Source: Minisyncoccota bacterium
GTDB taxonomy: Bacteria > Patescibacteriota > Minisyncoccia > Phycocordibacterales > CAJBRS01
NCBI GenBank assembly: GCA_017881075.1
Contig: JADGRH010000003.1
Location: forward strand, 64,682-128,681
Direction of reading: 5' to 3'
DNA length: 64,000 bases
Numbering within the stretch: position 1 is the stretch's first letter; each line of letters starts with the position of its first letter. Position numbers and translations under genes: made by a program. Shown here piece after piece: positions 10,755 through 30,463 of this stretch. Under the pieces are notes generated by a model. It saw only the letters and a list, made by a program, of their open reading frames with translations. It had not been told where the DNA came from and searched no databases.

Positions 10755-12608
10755 ATGATTCTATATAAAAATAATCTAAAGGATTTTAAAATTCACGTTG
10801 ATACTAATCAGATCGGGGATTTAATCGAGAAATCTTTTAGAGAAAAATTAGGGCACAAAGTTGCTCCAAATGAAAAAAGGTCATGGACTAATTCTATGTC
10901 GTTTATGGAGAAAATAGTCAGAAGGGCTGATCTTTCGGATACTTGCGGAGTTATGTTGGAATATATTATTCCAAACACTTCTAACAGAATCGACTTTTTA
11001 ATTTCCGGGGAAGACGAGAAAGGGAACAAGAATTTTATAATTATTGAATTGAAACAATGGGAAACATCAGAATCTACTGATAGAGATGGTGTAGTAAGGA
11101 CTTTTGTGGGAGGAGGAGTACGCGAAACTACGCACCCATCTTACCAGGCCCATTCCTATAAATTGTTTTTAAGTGACTACAATGAAAATATTGATTCTGG
11201 CATTCTTTCACCATACGCTTGCGCGTATCTGCATAATTATAAAGAGCGGAGTCCGGAGCCTCTAAAGGCTCAAATATATGAATCTGTTATTAAGGTAGCG
11301 CCAGTTTATTTTAAGGACGATTATGAAAAATTGGAGCAGTTTTTGCATAATTATGTTAGGTTCGGAAAAGGAGAAGAAATCTTGTATCAAATTGAAGCCG
11401 GCAGAATAAAACCTAGCAAAAAACTTATTGAGCATATTCAAAAAATGTATGAAGGAAACCAGGAATTTATATTACTGGATGAGCAAAAGGTGGCATATGA
11501 GACAGCTCGATCTGTAGCAAAGAAAGTTAAAGAAAAATCTGTCGTAATTATAAAAGGTGGTCCAGGGACGGGTAAATCTGTAATCTCAATGAATTTATTG
11601 GGAAGCCTATTAAAGGATGAACTTAATGTAAACTTTATTGCCCCTAACTCTGCCTTTAGAGAAGTAATGATTCATAGATTAGCAAGGAAGGAGACTAAAT
11701 TAAGGTTAAAAAACTTGTTTAAAGGCTCTGCTGGTTTTGTAAATGCCAAGAAAGACACATTTGATACTTTAATAGTGGATGAAGCACATAGATTAAAGAA
11801 AAAAGGTGCTTATCAATACAAGGGGATAAATCAGATAGAAGATATCGTTAATTCTGCTAGAACGTCTATCTTTTTTGTCGATGATAATCAGATGATTCGT
11901 CCAGACGATATAGGTTCAGTTCAGGAGATTAAAAGAGTGGCTGATAAAAATAAGGCAAGAATTTATGAAATAGAATTAGTCGCCCAATTTAGGTGTGCTG
12001 GGGCAGAAGGTTATCTTAATTGGCTCGACAATACATTACAGATTAAAGAGACAGCGAATTTTGATGGATGGGAGCAAAAAGATTTTGAGTTTAAGATTTT
12101 TAATGATCCTAACGACTTAAGGAAAATGATAAAAGAAAAGCATGATAAAGGATTTAATGCTCGAATTCTTGCTGGCTATGCTTGGAAGTGGACAAGTGTA
12201 GGGGAGGGCAATAAAAGTGGAGAAGTTGAAGATGTCTTAATCCCCGAATTCGATTTCAAAATGCCGTGGAATGCTCGACAAATTGGAACAACTTGGGCGG
12301 TTGATCCAAAAGGTATTGATCAGGCAGGATGCATTCATACTTCACAAGGTCTGGAATTTGACTACGTTGGAGTTTTGGTAGGCAATGATTTACGTTTTGA
12401 TTCCAAAAAACTTGACTACCATGCTCACTGGGTATCCTACAAAGATACGACGGGGAAAAAAGGGCTGAAAAATAACCCGGAAGAATTAACTAAATTAGTA
12501 AAAAATATCTACAAGGTTCTTATGAGCAGGGGTATGAAGGGATGCTATGTTTATTTTACTGACAAAGAAATGGAGAGATATTTTAAATCACGCTTAGGTA
12601 TCAAATAA
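10755..12608 (+). CDS. DUF2075-type ATPase/helicase-like protein with N-terminal PD-(D/E)xK-like nuclease motif
   Basis: Starts 4 nt after the MazG stop. N-terminus IDFLISG...FIIIELKQW (D...ExK). Walker A GGPGTGKSV, Walker B LIVDEAHRL. C-terminus HTSQGLEFDYVGVLVG and VLMSRGMKGCYVY as in DUF2075 proteins. Confidence 0.8.
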   Translation: MILYKNNLKDFKIHVDTNQIGDLIEKSFREKLGHKVAPNEKRSWTNSMSFMEKIVRRADLSDTCGVMLEYIIPNTSNRIDFLISGEDEKGNKNFIIIELKQWETSESTDRDGVVRTFVGGGVRETTHPSYQAHSYKLFLSDYNENIDSGILSPYACAYLHNYKERSPEPLKAQIYESVIKVAPVYFKDDYEKLEQFLHNYVRFGKGEEILYQIEAGRIKPSKKLIEHIQKMYEGNQEFILLDEQKVAYETARSVAKKVKEKSVVIIKGGPGTGKSVISMNLLGSLLKDELNVNFIAPNSAFREVMIHRLARKETKLRLKNLFKGSAGFVNAKKDTFDTLIVDEAHRLKKKGAYQYKGINQIEDIVNSARTSIFFVDDNQMIRPDDIGSVQEIKRVADKNKARIYEIELVAQFRCAGAEGYLNWLDNTLQIKETANFDGWEQKDFEFKIFNDPNDLRKMIKEKHDKGFNARILAGYAWKWTSVGEGNKSGEVEDVLIPEFDFKMPWNARQIGTTWAVDPKGIDQAGCIHTSQGLEFDYVGVLVGNDLRFDSKKLDYHAHWVSYKDTTGKKGLKNNPEELTKLVKNIYKVLMSRGMKGCYVYFTDKEMERYFKSRLGIK

Positions 12609-12820: not shown

Positions 12821-12907
12821 TCCTATTTATGCACGGCCTTTATCTAAAAAATGGCCAATGGACCAAAGAGAGAGCAGTAAAAATATCTGCGTATCATTTC
12901 ACTTATG

Positions 12908-12935
12908 GATAATCCGGCCTGCTCTGCCACGCTTG
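12908..12935. repeat. left inverted repeat of candidate invertible segment
   Basis: gataatccggcctgctctgccAcgcttg; its reverse complement occurs at 13317-13344 with 1 mismatch (core 21 bp perfect). Confidence 0.85.
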
Positions 12936-13286
12936 TATTGCCCTCTACTTTTTTTATGGCATACTTAAAAAAGAAATCCATGACAGACCTAATCTGATCT
13001 TTAAATATAAACCCTATTTTGCAGGTATGAAGAGACAATAAAGCATCGATTAAAAAATAATATGACCAATAAATATAGCAATAATCTTGTTACATAGAAT
13101 TTCAAATTTACTTAAAATATGGCTCTAATCAAGAACTAATTAAGATATGCACAGCTTATCCACTGGTAAGCTATTTACAAAACTGCTAGATTATGATACA
13201 TTAAGAGAGGAATATTTCTTTTTCCCCTCTTGCTGATTATAATAAGCTTTTCTTTCATAATAGGAAAAATAATATTAGCTAAATAC

Positions 13287-13315
13287 TTGACTCCAAAAAT
13301 TTTGGAGAGTATTAT
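13287..13315 (+). promoter_or_regulatory. sigma70-type promoter facing the 13360 operon, inside the IR-bounded segment
   Basis: TTGACT (13287-13292), 17-nt spacer, TATTAT (13310-13315). The spacer contains the palindrome ccaaaaattttgg. The -10 ends 1 nt before the right IR. Confidence 0.55.
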
Positions 13316-13316
13316 G

Positions 13317-13344
13317 CAAGCGCGGCAGAGCAGGCCGGATTATC
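13317..13344. repeat. right inverted repeat of candidate invertible segment
   Basis: caagcgCggcagagcaggccggattatc, the reverse complement of 12908-12935. Confidence 0.85.
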
Positions 13345-13359
13345 AATAAATTAAATTAT

Positions 13360-13761
13360 ATGACCAACGACAAATCTTTTTTGGAGGATCTCTATACTGA
13401 CAGTGGGGGATTCGACCGCGAACGGGTAGTGCGGGTGCTCCAAACCATACTAACCATTCAGCGGGGCGACCATAAAGTCTTCTTTAAAAAAGAGGCAACA
13501 CTAGAAGCTGCGGACAAAATTTTGGCTTATGCGTTAGTAAAAAAGCTTTTAAAGACAGAGGGGGTAACTGAAACGAGTAGTGTCTCGGGAAAGGAACTGA
13601 AGAAGCAAACGGGTGTAAAGTCCGGGACGGTCGATTTTACAATTAAAAAACTTAAAGAGGAAGATGGTCTGCTTGTTGGCAGCGGTAGCAATTATGAAAT
13701 ACCAGCACACAAAGTTGAAGACATCTTAGAGCGTCTTGAAAAATGCGCTTCCAAAAAATAA
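13360..13761 (+). CDS. hypothetical protein, C-terminal winged-helix-like region (operon gene 1)
   Basis: 133-aa ORF. SGKELKKQTGVKSGTVDFTIKKLKEEDGLLVGSGSNYEI reads as helix-turn-helix plus wing (inference). Confidence 0.6.
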   Translation: MTNDKSFLEDLYTDSGGFDRERVVRVLQTILTIQRGDHKVFFKKEATLEAADKILAYALVKKLLKTEGVTETSSVSGKELKKQTGVKSGTVDFTIKKLKEEDGLLVGSGSNYEIPAHKVEDILERLEKCASKK

Positions 13762-13765
13762 ATCT

Positions 13766-14206
13766 ATGGAAAATAACATAAAAAAAATACTCGGAGAAAT
13801 ACTCACATCCATAAAGAGCCTTGAAAAACGAGTTACTCTCATAGAAAGCAAGACACCGAGCATGAGTACACCATCACATGATCTTCCCATTGCCTCGAAG
13901 AAGATGTCGATAAAGGAGTTCCTAATTGATCGCTCTCCAGCAAATGGAGTACAAACAACTCTCGCGGTCGCATATTATCTAGAAAAATATGACAAGATCT
14001 CGCCATTTAATGCCAGTGACATAGAGAAAGCATTTCGTTCCGCTAAGGAACCAGTGCCCAACAATATCAATGATAAAGCAAATATGTGTATTAAAAATGG
14101 TCATTTAATGGAAGGAGAGGATAAGAAAGACAATATGAAAGCGTGGGTAGTCACTCGAAGCGGAGAACAATACGTTCAGGAAAAATTTGATCGTTATAGT
14201 CATTAA
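13766..14206 (+). CDS. hypothetical protein (operon gene 2)
   Basis: ORF-track start 13736 overlaps gene 1. ATG at 13766 (MENNIKKILGE...) gives a 4-nt gap. N-terminal coiled coil; C-terminal ...CIKNGHLMEG...KAWVVTRSGEQYV is wHTH-like. Confidence 0.6.
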   Translation: MENNIKKILGEILTSIKSLEKRVTLIESKTPSMSTPSHDLPIASKKMSIKEFLIDRSPANGVQTTLAVAYYLEKYDKISPFNASDIEKAFRSAKEPVPNNINDKANMCIKNGHLMEGEDKKDNMKAWVVTRSGEQYVQEKFDRYSH

Positions 14207-14235
14207 AAATAAAATTATTCACTAATATAAATATT

Positions 14236-14784
14236 ATGTCTGAAGCAGAAATAGTAGAAATCGTAGGGAAAATTGTTACTGCACTCACTCCTCTTTCTCA
14301 TGAGGAACGACAGAGGGCGGTGCAAGCGTCTTTAAATGTATTTGGTGAATCCATGCTCAGGTCTACACAAAGAAAAGACGAACTCAATGAAATTCCCTCT
14401 GCATTTAGTGAACGCGCGCGGATATGGATTAAACAGAACGAGCTTTCTTTGGAAAATTTAGAACAAATTTTTCATATTACTGATACTGGAGCAGAATTGA
14501 TTATTCAAGAAGTGCCGGGAGGAAAGGATAACAAACCCAGGGTGCTAAATGTGTATGTTCTTTCTGGCGTAGCTTCCCTACTCACCTCAGAAAATTCTAA
14601 TTTCGACGACAAAGTTGCAAGAACCATATGTGAATCATTTGGATGTTACGATCCAACAAATCACACTAAATACCTAAAGAAAAGTAAATTCTTTACAGGA
14701 TCCAAAAAAACAGGATGGACCTTGACTGCTCAGGGTTTAAAACATGCAGCCATGTTAGTTAGAGAACTGAGTAAGCCCCAATAG
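14236..14784 (+). CDS. hypothetical protein (operon gene 3)
   Basis: 182-aa ORF. C-terminus ...KFFTGSKKTGWTLTAQGLKHAAMLVREL is wHTH-wing-like; no known family recognised. Confidence 0.6.
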   Translation: MSEAEIVEIVGKIVTALTPLSHEERQRAVQASLNVFGESMLRSTQRKDELNEIPSAFSERARIWIKQNELSLENLEQIFHITDTGAELIIQEVPGGKDNKPRVLNVYVLSGVASLLTSENSNFDDKVARTICESFGCYDPTNHTKYLKKSKFFTGSKKTGWTLTAQGLKHAAMLVRELSKPQ

Positions 14785-14786
14785 AT

Positions 14787-15527
14787 ATGATTTTCACATT
14801 TAAAAATATTCCGATCAATCTTTCTGAAAAATTGGTTGAGGAATACTTGGAAATAAAGAAACGCCATTCAATGAGTGATTGGGGCCCAAGTCAATTAAAA
14901 GGCGGTAGATTTGCAGAAGCTATGTTACGCATTTTCCAACATTTGCTCGGTATTTCTATTACACCATTTGGGACCAACATTCCAAACAAAGACCGTATTT
15001 TAAATGCTGTAAAAATTCACCCGTCATTGGATGACCACATTCGTCAAAAAGTAGCACCTCTTATAAGACTTCTTCTAGATTTTCGTAATAATCGAGATGT
15101 AGCACACCTCGGAGGATTCAATGCAAATAGCATGGATACTCTTTTTGTGATGACAACAGCGACATGGATTTTGTGTGAACTGATCCGTGTTTATGGAGGG
15201 CAAAGTATGGACACCGCTCAAAAACTAGTAGACTCACTTTCCGTTAAAGAGTATCCAGTGCTAATGGAGTTCGAAGGAGAGCTCTTTATTACTCGACACA
15301 ATCTCAACGCAGAACAAGAAGTGCTAATATTTTTGTATAAAAATCGTAAAGCAGGCTACAATTTTTTGTCTTCAAAGACAAAGGACAGCAATTCTTCACG
15401 TTTTAAGAAAATTTTAGAGAAAATGGTTGCGGTAAAGTTCATTGGCAGCAAGGCAAATCAGTACTTTATCATGCCTCGTGGAATCGAGCGTGTAGAAAAA
15501 GAACGCTTATTGATCTATTCAAACTAG
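14787..15527 (+). CDS. hypothetical protein with HEPN-like Rx6H motif and C-terminal wHTH-like region (operon gene 4)
   Basis: Starts 2 nt after the gene 3 stop. LLLDFRNNRDVAHLGG (R100..H107, nt 15084-15107) lies in an all-helical N-terminal half and resembles the HEPN RNxxxxAH motif. C-terminus KFIGSKANQYFIMPRGIERV. Confidence 0.6.
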   Translation: MIFTFKNIPINLSEKLVEEYLEIKKRHSMSDWGPSQLKGGRFAEAMLRIFQHLLGISITPFGTNIPNKDRILNAVKIHPSLDDHIRQKVAPLIRLLLDFRNNRDVAHLGGFNANSMDTLFVMTTATWILCELIRVYGGQSMDTAQKLVDSLSVKEYPVLMEFEGELFITRHNLNAEQEVLIFLYKNRKAGYNFLSSKTKDSNSSRFKKILEKMVAVKFIGSKANQYFIMPRGIERVEKERLLIYSN

Positions 15528-15612: not shown

Positions 15613-16083
15613 ATGCAAAAGGACTTTACCTTTCAATTAATAAAGGGAAAAATCAGCGAAACTATATTTGATCAGATGTTTCGAGAAGCAGGGGAGTTTA
15701 CAGTTATCCCCTTTGGTTATGAAGCTTTAGTCCCGGAAATTGCTCAGCTTGCTCGTTCATTAGAACGCAAGGAAGTTCTGGACTCAATTAGGAATAGTCC
15801 TGATTTTGCACTGGTCTCTCATAGTCAGAAAAAGGTATTTCTAGTTGAAGTGAAATATAGGTCGCATTTACACGAAGATGACGTGTTAAATATTGCTCAG
15901 ATGGTTCACGACAGATGGAAACTAGCGTGGTTGTTCATTGCTACTCCGGAAGGATTCTATTTTGATAGTTGCTCGGATGTCTTAAATACTAAGACCATTA
16001 ATAAACTTAAACCAACATGGATCAATGCCGAACTCCAGGAAAAGTATTTAGCAGTAATGAATAAGTTTCAAGTTAACCATTAA
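15613..16083 (+). CDS. PD-(D/E)xK restriction-endonuclease-fold protein (putative)
   Basis: SPDFALVSHSQKKVFLVEVKYRS matches D-x(n)-E-x-K core spacing. Extended -10 (tgttatgat) upstream. Confidence 0.55.
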   Translation: MQKDFTFQLIKGKISETIFDQMFREAGEFTVIPFGYEALVPEIAQLARSLERKEVLDSIRNSPDFALVSHSQKKVFLVEVKYRSHLHEDDVLNIAQMVHDRWKLAWLFIATPEGFYFDSCSDVLNTKTINKLKPTWINAELQEKYLAVMNKFQVNH

Positions 16084-16102: not shown

Positions 16103-16861
16103 ATGTTCTCAGATCCAATCATTGAAAATTTAAAGTATTACGTTTATATACTTGTTGATCCGAGCAATAATAAGCCTTTTTATATTGGAAAAGGAATAGG
16201 AAATAGGGTTTTTTCCCATCTAAAAAATGAAATTGAAGACGAGTCTAAGATTTCATTAAAACAAGCGCTTATTAAAAATATTCAGGATCAAGGGAAAGAT
16301 GTTGAGATATACATAGTACGACACGGTTTAAATGAGAAGGAGGCATTTGAGATTGAGGCGACACTTATTGATTTTATCCAACTTAGAAATCTTACTAATG
16401 AAATAGTAGAGCACGACTATAAGGAAGAAATACCAGCTAAAAATCTGGCTAATATTGTTTTAGGACATCATGCGGGAGAAAGGGGGCTTATGACGCTAAA
16501 TGAAATACTCCAGTTGTATGGTGCAGAAGAGGCTAATATTACCGACCCAGTAATAATAATTAATATAAATCGAAAATATAAACGGGGCATGAGTCCGAAT
16601 GAAATATATGAAGCAACTCGAGCATCTTGGGTCATAAGCAAAGATAGGTCACAGAAAGCTAAATTTGTTCTCGCATCATTTCGTGGAATAGTAAAAGAAG
16701 TTTTCTATGTTAATCATTGGCAACAATCTAAGAATTCAAACCGCTTAGAATTTGAAGGAGGTGTTGCTCAGTTAGAGATTGCTGAAAAATATAGAAACAA
16801 AGCTATAACTAATTATTTGAAGACGGGGGCACAAAACCCAATTAGATACGTAAATTGTTAG
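16103..16861 (+). CDS. GIY-YIG nuclease-domain protein with uncharacterised C-terminal domain
   Basis: N-terminus YYVYILVD...KPFYIGKGIGNRVFSHL...EIEATLI fits GIY..YIG..R..H..E. Confidence 0.7.
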   Translation: MFSDPIIENLKYYVYILVDPSNNKPFYIGKGIGNRVFSHLKNEIEDESKISLKQALIKNIQDQGKDVEIYIVRHGLNEKEAFEIEATLIDFIQLRNLTNEIVEHDYKEEIPAKNLANIVLGHHAGERGLMTLNEILQLYGAEEANITDPVIIININRKYKRGMSPNEIYEATRASWVISKDRSQKAKFVLASFRGIVKEVFYVNHWQQSKNSNRLEFEGGVAQLEIAEKYRNKAITNYLKTGAQNPIRYVNC

Positions 16862-17157: not shown

Positions 17158-17661
17158 GTGGAAAATGAGTTTAAGAATCTTGCTTTTATAGATGGACAGA
17201 ATCTGTATATGGGTACGTCAAAGCGAGAGATCGATCCGTGGGAAATTAACCTTACCCGATTCTGTGTATATCTGGATGAAAAATACAATGTCGGTAATGC
17301 CTATTATTTTTTAGGATATGTGCAGGAGGCAAATCAAGAACTCTACGAAGAAATACAAAAGGCTGGTTTCTTGCTAGTATTTCGAGAACATAATCCAGCG
17401 ATGATTGGGAAGAAAAAAGGAAATGTGGATTCAGATATTGTCTTTCATGTCATGAAAAATCTATACAAGAAAGAGAATTTTAAAAAGATAATCCTTGTTT
17501 CTGGAGATGGTGACTATAAATTACTGGTTGATTTTTTGATAGCAGAGAACCGATTCGAGAAGATATTGTTTCCGAATAGAGAATTTGCGTCTTCTTTGTA
17601 CAAGAAACTCGGTTCGGAATATTTTGATTACTTAGAAAATATAAAGACATATATCACATAA
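17158..17661 (+). CDS. NYN-domain (LabA/PIN-like) ribonuclease
   Basis: AFIDGQNLY, GNVDSDIVFHVM and ILVSGDGDY are the NYN acidic motifs. GTG start as in the ORF track. Confidence 0.8.
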   Translation: MENEFKNLAFIDGQNLYMGTSKREIDPWEINLTRFCVYLDEKYNVGNAYYFLGYVQEANQELYEEIQKAGFLLVFREHNPAMIGKKKGNVDSDIVFHVMKNLYKKENFKKIILVSGDGDYKLLVDFLIAENRFEKILFPNREFASSLYKKLGSEYFDYLENIKTYIT

Positions 17662-30057: not shown

Positions 30058-30457
30058 TCTTCTTGAATCGGGTAATTGCTCCGCCACCTAAAAAGGGCGG
30101 GGAGGAAAGTCCGAACACAGGCCCTTCACCAAAATTGGTGAAGGGAAGAGTAGCGGGTAATACCCGTCTGGAGCAATCCACGAGGTGCGAACAGAGACGA
30201 ACCGGTTAAGTCCGGGTGAAACGGCTAAATCCTTACTTCTGTGCAAGGCCGCGCGCCAATTTTGTCCGCTAGAGGCGGTTACAAAATTGAGCGTCCCGAG
30301 ATTTTCGAGGGATTGATCCTTCGACAAGCTCAGGGCACTCAATCTTGCAGCCACCTGCAGTGGGCAAGATTGGTGAGTGCCGCTTGACTCCGAGAGTAAT
30401 CGAGGAGCTAGATAAATAATTATCGATAACAGAATTCGGCTTATAGATTCAAGAAGA
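30058..30457 (+). ncRNA. rnpB: RNase P RNA (bacterial type A)
   Basis: GAGGAAAGTCCGAACAC (CR-I) and ACAGAATTCGGCTTATAG (CR-V). P1 pairing tcttcttgaatc (30058-) / gattcaagaaga (-30457). Promoter TTGTCT-16-TATAAT at 30026-30053. Confidence 0.9.
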
Positions 30458-30463
30458 CAAATC

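What the first reader, a model, noticed from the sequence alone, without database searches (positions are those of the whole stretch)
13360..15527. Uncharacterised four-gene operon (three small wHTH-like proteins + HEPN-like effector) under the candidate switch - possible new abortive-infection/defence system
Four co-directional genes have gaps of 4, 29 and 2 nt (13360..13761, 13766..14206, 14236..14784, 14787..15527). None matches a family I recognise. Each protein ends in a segment that reads like a winged helix: helix-turn-helix, then ...G.L..G... and a Y/W-x-hydrophobic-T/P-x-x-G wing (SNYEIPAHK, KAWVVTRSGEQ, GWTLTAQGLKH, QYFIMPRGIER). The fourth, largest protein has LLLDFRNNRDVAHLGG inside an all-helical N-terminal half. 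That is an R-x6-H arrangement resembling the HEPN RNase catalytic motif (RNxxxxAH), as found in Abi and toxin effectors. The operon lacks SD sequences and is AT-rich apart from a GC-rich patch at its 5' end. It lies between a MazG/DUF2075 pair and three stand-alone nucleases, and appears to be driven by a phase-variable promoter. Phase-variable expression of a toxic HEPN effector together with DNA-binding sensor or antitoxin partners would be a coherent new immune module.
Basis: inference. Interest (0 to 1): 0.8.

Follow-up and report, generated by a model that had tools for sequence, protein, structure and literature searches.

The report
Unannotated HEPN RNase operon with winged-helix partners
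The four genes are real and belong to a widespread, so far unnamed operon family in which a predicted HEPN RNase fused to a DNA-binding winged helix always comes last, behind one to four interchangeable small winged-helix proteins; it is most likely a new toxin/abortive-infection-type module, but this has not been tested experimentally.

Summary
There are four co-directional ORFs (A 13360-13761, B 13766-14206, C 14236-14784, D 14787-15527) with gaps of 4, 29 and 2 nt. None has a significant Pfam, NCBIfam, PADLOC or PHROG hit.

B is a coiled coil plus winged helix (from a structure model). A resembles D's C-terminal module. C is unresolved.

The strict four-gene order is not conserved, but the module is. 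In 40 of 41 non-redundant loci, mostly Alphaproteobacteria and CPR, D is last and is preceded by 1-4 small genes from families A, A', B, C, E, G and H. The D superfamily has 878 clusters at 50% identity, and none is annotated.

Location in defence islands is only partial, and there are no phage hits.

Most likely D is a HEPN toxin gated by winged-helix partners (confidence 0.5). The inverted-repeat "switch" recurs in one relative but is unproven.

The parts
13360..13761 (+). Gene A (133 aa): a small partner protein made of a beta-hairpin plus a winged-helix-like module. It is a likely paralogue of D's C-terminal module.
   Evidence: ORF. The family profile hits only wHTH proteins in the PDB (PscE E 0.002, MJ223 0.016, MarR 0.023), all over residues 70-125. 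hhalign of A against D residues 135-240 gives probability 68%, E 4.9e-5 over 105 columns. Family A lies upstream of D in 16 of 41 non-redundant loci and in the distant locus L081 (E 4e-12).
13766..14206 (+). Gene B (146 aa): N-terminal coiled-coil helix (residues 2-28, nt 13769-13849), disordered linker (29-43), and C-terminal winged helix (49-138, nt 13910-14179).
14236..14784 (+). Gene C (182 aa): a partner protein of unknown fold with the conserved block F123-D125-x2-A128-R129-x2-C132...N142-H143 and a wing-like end, G160-W161-x2-T164-x2-G167.
   Evidence: ORF. The family has 237 homologues, all unannotated 'hypothetical protein' with no Pfam hit. The only signal is a weak Mrr_N match (E 0.12), and there is no PDB profile hit. 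C-like domains precede D-like genes in the distant loci L078 and L079.
14787..15527 (+). Gene D (246 aa): the constant component of the module, a HEPN-like domain plus a beta-hairpin and winged helix.
   Evidence: AF2 model with pLDDT 85. 257 close homologues and 878 clusters at 50% identity. D is the last family gene in 40 of 41 non-redundant loci; in L026 an E-like gene lies after a decayed D.
14787..15236 (+). HEPN-like domain of D (residues 1-150): helices 10-28, 35-54, an insert at 55-82, then helices 83-101 and 113-137.
15084..15107 (+). Predicted catalytic motif R100-N101-N-R103-D-V-A-H107 (an Rx6H arrangement).
   Evidence: Invariant in close homologues and at least 90% conserved in 113 diverse relatives. 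[quoted passage not shown]
14916..14930 (+). E44-x3-R48 in helix 2: the second HEPN signature, an acidic residue within an Ex3[KR] motif.
   Evidence: E44 is invariant in both alignments. R48 is invariant in the close set, and R is the majority residue at that column in the 113-member alignment (consensus GGRFxExxxRIL).
15255..15506 (+). C-terminal beta-hairpin plus winged helix of D (residues 157-240).
13287..13315 (+). Best sigma-70-like promoter match of the region (TTGACT-17-TATTAT), 45 nt upstream of the ATG of gene A.
   Evidence: 10 of 12 matches. The equivalent TTGACA-17-TACAAT is at the same position in L029. This is a consensus match only.
13293..13360 (.). Right arm of the inverted repeat. 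It covers the -10 element, the leader and the ATG of gene A. Its core is 13317-13342.
12892..12959 (.). Left arm of the inverted repeat, with core 12910-12935. A terminator-like hairpin on the minus strand lies just beyond it, at 12865-12852.

Best explanation
The locus is a member of an unannotated family of conflict-type (toxin-antitoxin / abortive-infection-like) operons.

The constant gene, D, encodes a metal-independent HEPN RNase. Its catalytic residues are predicted to be R100, N101 and H107, assisted by E44. The HEPN domain is fused to a beta-hairpin plus winged-helix module.

A, B and C are fast-evolving, interchangeable small winged-helix partners. Each has a short N-terminal 'head' (a coiled coil in B), a flexible linker and a winged-helix body. 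They are co-translated with D.

Inferred steps:
- The partners bind D and/or the same nucleic acid and keep the HEPN dimer's composite active site closed. [quoted passage not shown]
- The partners probably also autoregulate the operon.
- A perturbation such as phage infection, or loss or titration of the partners, frees D. D then cleaves cellular RNA and arrests growth.

What is shown: the fold, the motif, conservation of the motif, the partners' folds (B by structure model, A at profile level), and co-occurrence and gene order across phyla. What is inferred: RNase activity, toxicity, neutralisation by the partners, and the trigger.
For: HEPN assignment:
- The AF2 model has pLDDT 85.
- Of these residues, E44, R100, N101 and H107 are at least 90% conserved in 113 relatives at 21-40% identity; R48 is invariant in the 40 close homologues and R is the majority residue at that column in the wider set.

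Partners:
- B is a coiled coil plus wHTH.
- A gives wHTH profile hits and is homologous to D's C-terminal module.

Module conservation:
- 40 of 41 non-redundant loci have small family genes directly upstream of D, usually with a 3-nt gap or an overlap.
- A-like and B-like genes precede a D at about 25% identity in L081. C-like and E-like genes precede D-like genes in L078, L079 and L086.
- D is much more conserved (59-66% identity) than B (36-49%), C (33-47%) or A (28-39%) between the same loci.

Distribution and context:
- The distribution is patchy, spanning Alphaproteobacteria, CPR phyla, Acidobacteria and an archaeal plasmid.
- Decayed copies exist in L019, L025 and L026.
- Methyltransferases or type IIG enzymes flank a few further loci.

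Precedent: a WH protein neutralises a HEPN toxin in Retron-Kva2.
Against: - No sequence-level link to any HEPN family exists in Pfam, NCBIfam or PDB profile searches.
- Foldseek against the PDB found only winged-helix hits, none significant.
- Most alphaproteobacterial cassettes sit among housekeeping genes rather than in recognisable defence islands.
- There are no hits in IMG/VR or GenBank phages, and only one distant plasmid hit.
- Four winged helices in one operon would also fit a purely regulatory module.
- Nothing here shows toxicity, RNA cleavage or phage resistance.
Confidence: 0.5

Rival explanations
1. It is a plain addiction or stabilisation toxin-antitoxin module with no antiviral role. 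D is a HEPN toxin, and one or more of the winged-helix proteins act as labile antitoxins and autorepressors. The module persists because it is selfish and mobile.
For: The molecular evidence is the same as for the best explanation. Many cassettes are isolated inserts among housekeeping genes. In three CPR loci a large serine recombinase lies directly upstream, and an IS110 transposase lies near the Bradyrhizobium copy. Decayed copies exist.
Against: Classic type II TA loci have two genes. Here up to five co-evolving genes with combinatorial partner sets are maintained, which suggests diversifying sensing. Some copies lie in clear defence islands. The two readings are not mutually exclusive.
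Confidence: 0.2
2. It is a purely regulatory module: a set of winged-helix transcription factors in which D's helical domain is a non-catalytic ligand- or nucleotide-binding HEPN-like sensor. The set would control neighbouring genes or its own mobile element.
For: All proteins whose fold could be assessed contain MarR/PadR-like winged helices. Non-catalytic HEPN domains are known (PMC3710099). There is no sequence match to a catalytic HEPN family.
Against: Non-catalytic HEPN domains characteristically lose the Rx4-6H motif. Here R100, N101, H107 and E44 are the best-conserved positions over 113 distant relatives. The neighbouring genes differ completely between loci, so there is no conserved regulatory target other than the cassette itself.
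Confidence: 0.15
3. It is an accessory module of an integrative or mobile element, for example a recombination-directionality, partition or centromere-binding set like AspA/TubR, rather than a toxin system.
Against: No partition NTPase, replication gene or recombinase accompanies the cassette in the window or in most loci. The AspA and TubR similarity is generic for the winged-helix fold. This reading does not explain the conserved HEPN catalytic motif.
Confidence: 0.05

Closest known systems
HEPN superfamily RNase toxins (Anantharaman et al. 2013, PMC3710099), e.g. the AF0298-type HEPN-T of HEPN-MNT modules and the Abi-type HEPNs (AbiD/F/J/V)
   Same: Four-helix HEPN bundle with an insert between helices 2 and 3. 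An Rx6H motif with N after the R at the end of helix 3. Ex3R in helix 2. Small mobile operons with a patchy distribution, and location in a defence island in the window.
   Different: No profile match to any Pfam or NCBIfam HEPN family. There is no MNT nucleotidyltransferase partner. The HEPN domain is fused to a C-terminal beta-hairpin plus winged helix, and it is accompanied by 1-4 winged-helix partner genes. The 2013 survey lists wHTH-HEPN fusions only in giant multi-domain or REase-containing proteins.
Type IX retron (Retron-Kva2) HEPN + WH dual effector (bioRxiv 10.64898/2026.07.14.738597)
   Same: A HEPN toxin encoded next to a winged-helix protein. In the retron that WH protein alone mitigates HEPN toxicity by shielding the dimer's active site. 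The whole system acts by RNA cleavage and abortive infection.
   Different: There is no reverse transcriptase and no ncRNA here (Pfam and Rfam negative). The retron HEPN lacks Rx4-6H and uses H64/R122 instead, whereas D has the canonical motif. D carries its own winged helix, and it has several partner families instead of one 245-aa WH protein. No sequence similarity was tested or claimed.
Csx1/Csm6 and Csa3-type CRISPR ancillary proteins (CARF-wHTH-HEPN / CARF-wHTH)
   Same: They combine a HEPN RNase domain with a winged helix in one polypeptide. Weak PADLOC hits to CARF and WH_III-A models appear in a few members, and there is a Foldseek hit to Csa3 (E 0.41).
   Different: D has no CARF domain and no CRISPR-cas context. 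The domain order is HEPN then wHTH, and the hits are far below significance.
Invertible-promoter phase-variation switches (fimS, Hin/hix, Bacteroides invertons); relevant to the upstream element only
   Same: Inverted repeats with a 26-nt near-perfect core flank a roughly 380-bp segment. That segment carries the best promoter match, pointing into the operon, with a terminator-like hairpin on the far side. The same geometry occurs in L029.
   Different: The arms are much longer (68-73 nt) than classical recombinase sites. There is no recombinase gene in the 64-kb window. No flipped copy was observed.

Membership tests
HEPN superfamily | [quoted passage not shown] | tested here: met
HEPN superfamily | Rx4-6H motif at the end of helix 3 or the start of the loop to helix 4, with a polar residue (N/D/H) after the R. 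| tested here: met
   R100-N101-x5-H107. R100 and N101 end helix 83-101, and H107 is in the loop. The motif is at least 90% conserved in 113 relatives.
HEPN superfamily | Conserved acidic residue in helix 2, typically within Ex3[KR]. | tested here: met
   E44-A-M-L-R48 lies in helix 35-54. E44 is invariant, and the consensus is GGRFxExxxRIL.
HEPN superfamily | Significant profile match to a curated HEPN family. | tested here: not met
   No HEPN family appeared for D or for any of 113 relatives in Pfam-A or NCBIfam. The PDB profile search gave only weak winged-helix hits.
HEPN superfamily | Metal-independent RNase activity from a composite active site in a dimer. | not testable with these tools
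   This needs biochemistry or a multimer model.
Winged helix-turn-helix (MarR/PadR-like) fold | Three-helix bundle plus a beta-hairpin wing. Tested separately for A, B, C and the C-terminus of D. | tested here: inconclusive
Known anti-phage systems in PADLOC-DB v2 | HMM match of any component. | tested here: not met
   No hit for B, C or D. A gives only a 12-bit match to CARF_TM. The 113 D relatives give only scattered hits at E above 1e-3.
HEPN-MNT type II/VII toxin-antitoxin | An adjacent minimal nucleotidyltransferase antitoxin. | tested here: not met
   No NTP_transf_2/MNT domain occurs in A-C or in the cassettes of other loci.
Type IX retron | Reverse transcriptase plus msr/msd ncRNA next to the HEPN and WH genes. 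| tested here: not met
   There is no RVT domain in the island, and Rfam finds only RNase P RNA and tRNAs in the window.
Invertible-promoter phase switch (upstream element) | Inverted repeats flanking a promoter-bearing segment. | tested here: met
   The arms are 12892-12959 and 13293-13360, with core copies that are unique in the window. The promoter match at 13287-13315 sits at the inner edge. The same layout occurs in L029.
Invertible-promoter phase switch (upstream element) | A cognate site-specific recombinase, and both orientations present in a population. | tested here: inconclusive
   No Hin, FimB, XerD or large-serine-recombinase homologue was found among window ORFs of 80 aa or more. 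The window and the Logan assembly, and the three assemblies of L029, all show one orientation. Read-level data could not be examined.

The most novel reading that the evidence does not exclude
The locus represents a previously unrecognised, widespread multi-component immune system. In it, a nucleic-acid-bound array of interchangeable winged-helix 'adaptor' proteins (families A, A', B, C, E, G, H and others) senses infection and gates a conserved HEPN-winged-helix RNase. In some lineages, including this one, expression is switched ON and OFF by inversion of a promoter cassette flanked by roughly 70-nt inverted repeats.
Probability: 0.2. Interest if true: 0.8.

Novelty: new variant of a known kind. 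Interest (0 to 1): 0.55.

Why it matters
The D superfamily is large: 878 clusters at 50% identity, with 506 at E below 1e-10. Yet Pfam-A (2025), NCBIfam (June 2026), PADLOC v2 and PHROGs all lack a model for it, so automated annotation and defence-system finders do not see it.

Its operons are frequent in Candidate Phyla Radiation bacteria and soil Alphaproteobacteria, groups whose immune repertoires are poorly charted.

If D is an active HEPN RNase controlled by swappable winged-helix partners, this would add a new architecture to HEPN-based toxin and abortive-infection systems. It would also offer a simple model for how small DNA-binding proteins gate an RNase. The possible promoter-inversion control would be an example of phase-variable expression of a toxic immune effector.

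Tried and rejected
- Profile searches of A-D and neighbours against Pfam, PADLOC, NCBIfam and PHROGs found nothing significant for A-D.
- Pfam, PADLOC and NCBIfam scans of 113 diverse D relatives gave only scattered winged-helix or noise hits.
- PDB sequence-profile searches with D gave no HEPN hit.
- The PDB sequence-profile search with C gave nothing significant.
- Foldseek against the PDB with the D model returned only non-significant winged-helix hits.
- A prophage or phage origin is rejected: there are no relatives in IMG/VR or GenBank phages, and only one distant archaeal plasmid hit.
- A fixed four-gene system is rejected, because the architectures are combinatorial.
- The inverted repeat is not a dispersed MITE. 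The core occurs only twice in the window and in no other fetched locus apart from L001, which is the same genome.
- The inverted repeat is not a general feature of the family. It was absent from the upstream regions of 15 other cassettes.
- By eye, the left arm seemed to encode a TetR-type HTH fragment (ORF 12844-13038, minus strand), but Pfam gives no hit, so this was dropped.
- hhalign found no detectable relation of C to A, B, D or the other partner families.
- The downstream 156-aa ORF (15613-16083) is not part of the module: family genes end with D in 40 of 41 related loci, none of the 76 scanned loci (L001-L076) carries this ORF after D, and a T-rich stretch follows D's stop codon.
Full report
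**Observation**

The window holds four co-directional + strand ORFs at exactly the stated coordinates: A 13360-13761 (133 aa), B 13766-14206 (146 aa), C 14236-14784 (182 aa) and D 14787-15527 (246 aa). The gaps are 4, 29 and 2 nt.
- None has a significant match in Pfam-A, PADLOC-DB v2, NCBIfam r20 or PHROGs.
- No Shine-Dalgarno-like sequence precedes any start.
- They lie in a low-GC island at about 10.3-17.8 kb.
- Upstream are a MazG-like gene and a DUF2075/SLFN-g3 helicase (72 bits to PDC-S41).
- Downstream are a weak TnsA/YraN-like ORF, a GIY-YIG protein matching PD-T4-3 (1e-53) and an NYN protein.

**What D is**

An AlphaFold2 model built on 40 homologues has mean pLDDT 85. It shows two parts.
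- An N-terminal helical domain, with helices at 10-28, 35-54, a short insert helix at 68-77, then 83-101, 113-137 and 141-150.
- A C-terminal beta-hairpin plus winged helix, spanning residues 159-238.

The reference survey of HEPN domains (PMC3710099) sets out four defining features:
- the residue after the R is polar;
- an acidic residue in helix 2 often forms Ex3[KR];
- inserts between helices 2 and 3 are typical.

D meets all four. R100-N101 end helix 83-101 and H107 is in the loop. E44-x3-R48 lies in helix 35-54. Residues 55-82 form the insert.

Conservation supports this.
- In 40 close homologues, R100, N101, R103, D104, H107, E44 and R48 are invariant.
- A full scan of 1.84 billion cluster representatives found 878 clusters with E up to 1e-3 and 506 with E up to 1e-10, nearly all about 255 aa and matching end to end.
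- In 113 of these, at 21-40% identity to D apart from one close representative at 61%, F42, E44, R86, R100, N101, R103, H107, D117, W127, E131 and R134 are invariant or at least 90% conserved.

There are weaknesses.
- No curated HEPN model and no PDB sequence profile matches D or any of the 113 relatives.
- Foldseek against the PDB returns only non-significant winged-helix hits.
- The loop segment 104-108, which holds H107, has pLDDT below 50.

I accept the HEPN assignment at fold and motif level, but not membership of any named HEPN family.

**The small proteins**

- A: the family profile hits only winged-helix proteins in the PDB, at E 0.002-0.02 over residues 70-125. Nearly the whole of A aligns to D's C-terminal module (hhalign 68%, E 4.9e-5, 105 columns). 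A therefore looks like a free-standing copy of D's beta-hairpin plus wHTH.
- C: the family has 237 unannotated homologues. It has a conserved F-D-D..AR..C..G.YD..NH block and a G-W-x-L-T-x-x-G end.

**Conservation of the module**

D homologues were fetched with their flanks from GTDB genomes (20 loci), from metagenomes (46 loci) and by exact look-ups. I classified the upstream ORFs with family HMMs.

The results for 41 non-redundant loci with at least 1.3 kb of upstream sequence:
- 40 have family genes directly upstream of D, and 39 have a B-type gene.
- The junction to D is usually a 3-nt gap or an overlap.
- The architectures are combinatorial: A'-C-B-D (7), A-A'-G-D (7), B-D (6), H-B-D (4), A-B-D (3), C-B-D (3), A-B-G-D (2), B-C-D (2). 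Six other arrangements occur once each: A-B-C-D (this window only), B-C-E-D, A-B-E-D, A-B-G-G-D, A-A'-D and A'-C-C-B-D. One locus has D alone.
- Several loci have further unclassified partners of the same build.
- B, E and H share a roughly 100-aa domain (hhalign 94-96%), and G is linked through E at 80%.

The association survives deep divergence of D.
- In L081-83, with D at about 25% identity, the upstream genes are A-like (E 4e-12) and B-like (E 8e-25).
- In L078 and L079 the upstream genes are C-like.
- In L086 there are two E-like genes.

Against the window, D is 59-66% identical, B 36-49%, C 33-47% and A 28-39% in the same loci. So D is a conserved core and the partners evolve fast. Decayed D genes occur in L019, L025 and L026.

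**Context**

The hosts are mostly Alphaproteobacteria (Bradyrhizobium, Afipia, Hyphomicrobiales) and CPR phyla (Saccharibacteria, Parcubacteria, Paceibacteria, Campbellbacteria). There are also an Acidobacteria C homologue and one distant archaeal plasmid hit.

There are no relatives in IMG/VR or GenBank phages.

A scan of the two nearest neighbours on each side in 35 loci shows a mixed picture.
- C5 methyltransferases occur in 3 loci, and MmeI/Eco57I-type enzymes in 1-2.
- LexA, NUDIX and resolvase/large serine recombinase genes also occur.
- A UvrA paralogue appears in 4 loci, which reflects a shared alphaproteobacterial insertion site next to Ku/LigD.
- The remaining neighbours are many housekeeping genes.

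**The upstream 'switch'**

- Arms 12892-12959 and 13293-13360 are 76% complementary, with 333 nt between them.
- They share a 26-nt core with one mismatch. The core occurs nowhere else in the window.
- The best sigma-70-like match of the region, TTGACT-17-TATTAT at 13287-13315, lies at the inner edge of the right arm and points into gene A. The right arm ends at A's ATG.
- A terminator-like hairpin lies beyond the left arm on the minus strand.
- L029, a cassette whose D is about 65% identical, has the same geometry: 73-nt arms, 89% complementary, a 329-nt spacer and TTGACA-17-TACAAT at the same place. Its arm sequence is different.
- Fifteen other cassettes lack such repeats.
- No recombinase homologue is encoded in the window.
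- All available assemblies show one orientation.

The layout fits a promoter-inversion switch, but it could equally be a pair of operators. This remains undecided.

**Mechanism**

The most likely reading (confidence 0.5) is that D is a HEPN RNase toxin or effector and that A, B and C are cognate winged-helix partners. The partners would bind D and/or the same nucleic acid, keep the active site closed and autoregulate the operon. Release would lead to RNA cleavage and growth arrest.

A direct precedent exists in the type IX retron. There the WH protein encircles the HEPN active site, and WH alone mitigates toxicity (bioRxiv 10.64898/2026.07.14.738597).

The rivals are:
- a selfish TA module without an antiviral role (0.2), which is compatible with the same biochemistry;
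- a purely regulatory set with a non-catalytic HEPN-like sensor (0.15), disfavoured because non-catalytic HEPNs lose Rx4-6H;
- a mobile-element accessory or partition module (0.05).

**Comparison and novelty**

The locus works like a HEPN toxin system. It is not a member of HEPN-MNT because it has no nucleotidyltransferase. It is not a type IX retron because it has no RT or ncRNA, and that retron's HEPN lacks the canonical motif. It is not Csx1/Csm6 because it has no CARF domain. It matches no PADLOC system.

The HEPN then wHTH fusion with multiple swappable wHTH partners was not found in the HEPN survey or in a full-text search. I rate it a new variant of a known kind, with interest 0.55. It is a large, unannotated and coherent operon family with a clear, testable catalytic prediction, but HEPN-based conflict modules as a class are well known and nothing functional has been shown here.

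Noticed in passing
window 12892-13360; L029 8147-8621: The inverted-repeat plus promoter geometry recurs in L029: arms of about 70 nt, a spacer of about 330 nt, a promoter match at the inner edge of the right arm, and the right arm ending at the ATG of gene A. The arm sequence in L029 is different. L029's arm contains its own dyad (ACTGG..CGGTGA / TCACCG..CCAGT). No flipped copy was seen and no recombinase is encoded in the window.
   Followed up: partly
window 13055-13069 vs 13353-13367: There is a direct repeat of the start of gene A (AAAT[A/T]ATATGACCAA) inside the spacer between the inverted-repeat arms. It could be a recombination scar or a second start site.
   Followed up: no
window 10755-12608; L085 9416-11443: A DUF2075/SLFN-g3-type helicase lies next to the cassette in the window. 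One also lies next to a distant D-like operon in L085. This may reflect shared defence-island membership or a functional link.
   Followed up: no
L021 4849-6165, L022 5054-6385, L024 5235-6524: A large serine recombinase gene sits directly upstream of, and co-directional with, the A-A'-G-D cassettes in three CPR genomes. This suggests carriage on a small integrative element, or a cognate invertase.
   Followed up: partly
L081 2656-4047 (also L082, L083): In a distant branch, the A-like, B-like, D-like operon continues into an overlapping DUF87/HerA-like ATPase. The C-terminus of that ATPase matches the D profile (E 1e-8).
   Followed up: no
L025 8001-8748; L026 1653-2366; L019 8034-8630: Some D genes are frameshifted or truncated, while the partner genes in the same loci remain intact. 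Loss of D is therefore tolerated.
   Followed up: no
window 15613-16083, 16103-16861, 17158-17661: Three stand-alone predicted nucleases lie downstream: a weak TnsA/YraN-like PD-(D/E)xK ORF (E 0.001), a GIY-YIG protein matching PD-T4-3 (1e-53) and an NYN protein (2e-13). They are not conserved next to D in other loci.
   Followed up: partly
L029 2894-3955: A reverse-transcriptase gene (RVT_1, 353 aa) lies about 5 kb upstream of the L029 cassette, separated from it by housekeeping genes. It is probably unrelated.
   Followed up: no
window 12844-13038 (minus strand): A 64-aa ORF overlaps the left inverted-repeat arm. By eye it reads like a TetR-type HTH (VAEQAGLSISEMIRRYF), and the right arm encodes AAEQAGLS in one frame. 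Pfam gives no hit.
   Followed up: yes
window 30060-30459 and seven tRNA genes at 573-45118: Bacterial RNase P RNA class A (113 bits) and seven tRNA genes are present. The window is chromosomal bacterial DNA, and the closest D homologues (62-66%) are in Saccharibacteria MAGs.
   Followed up: no
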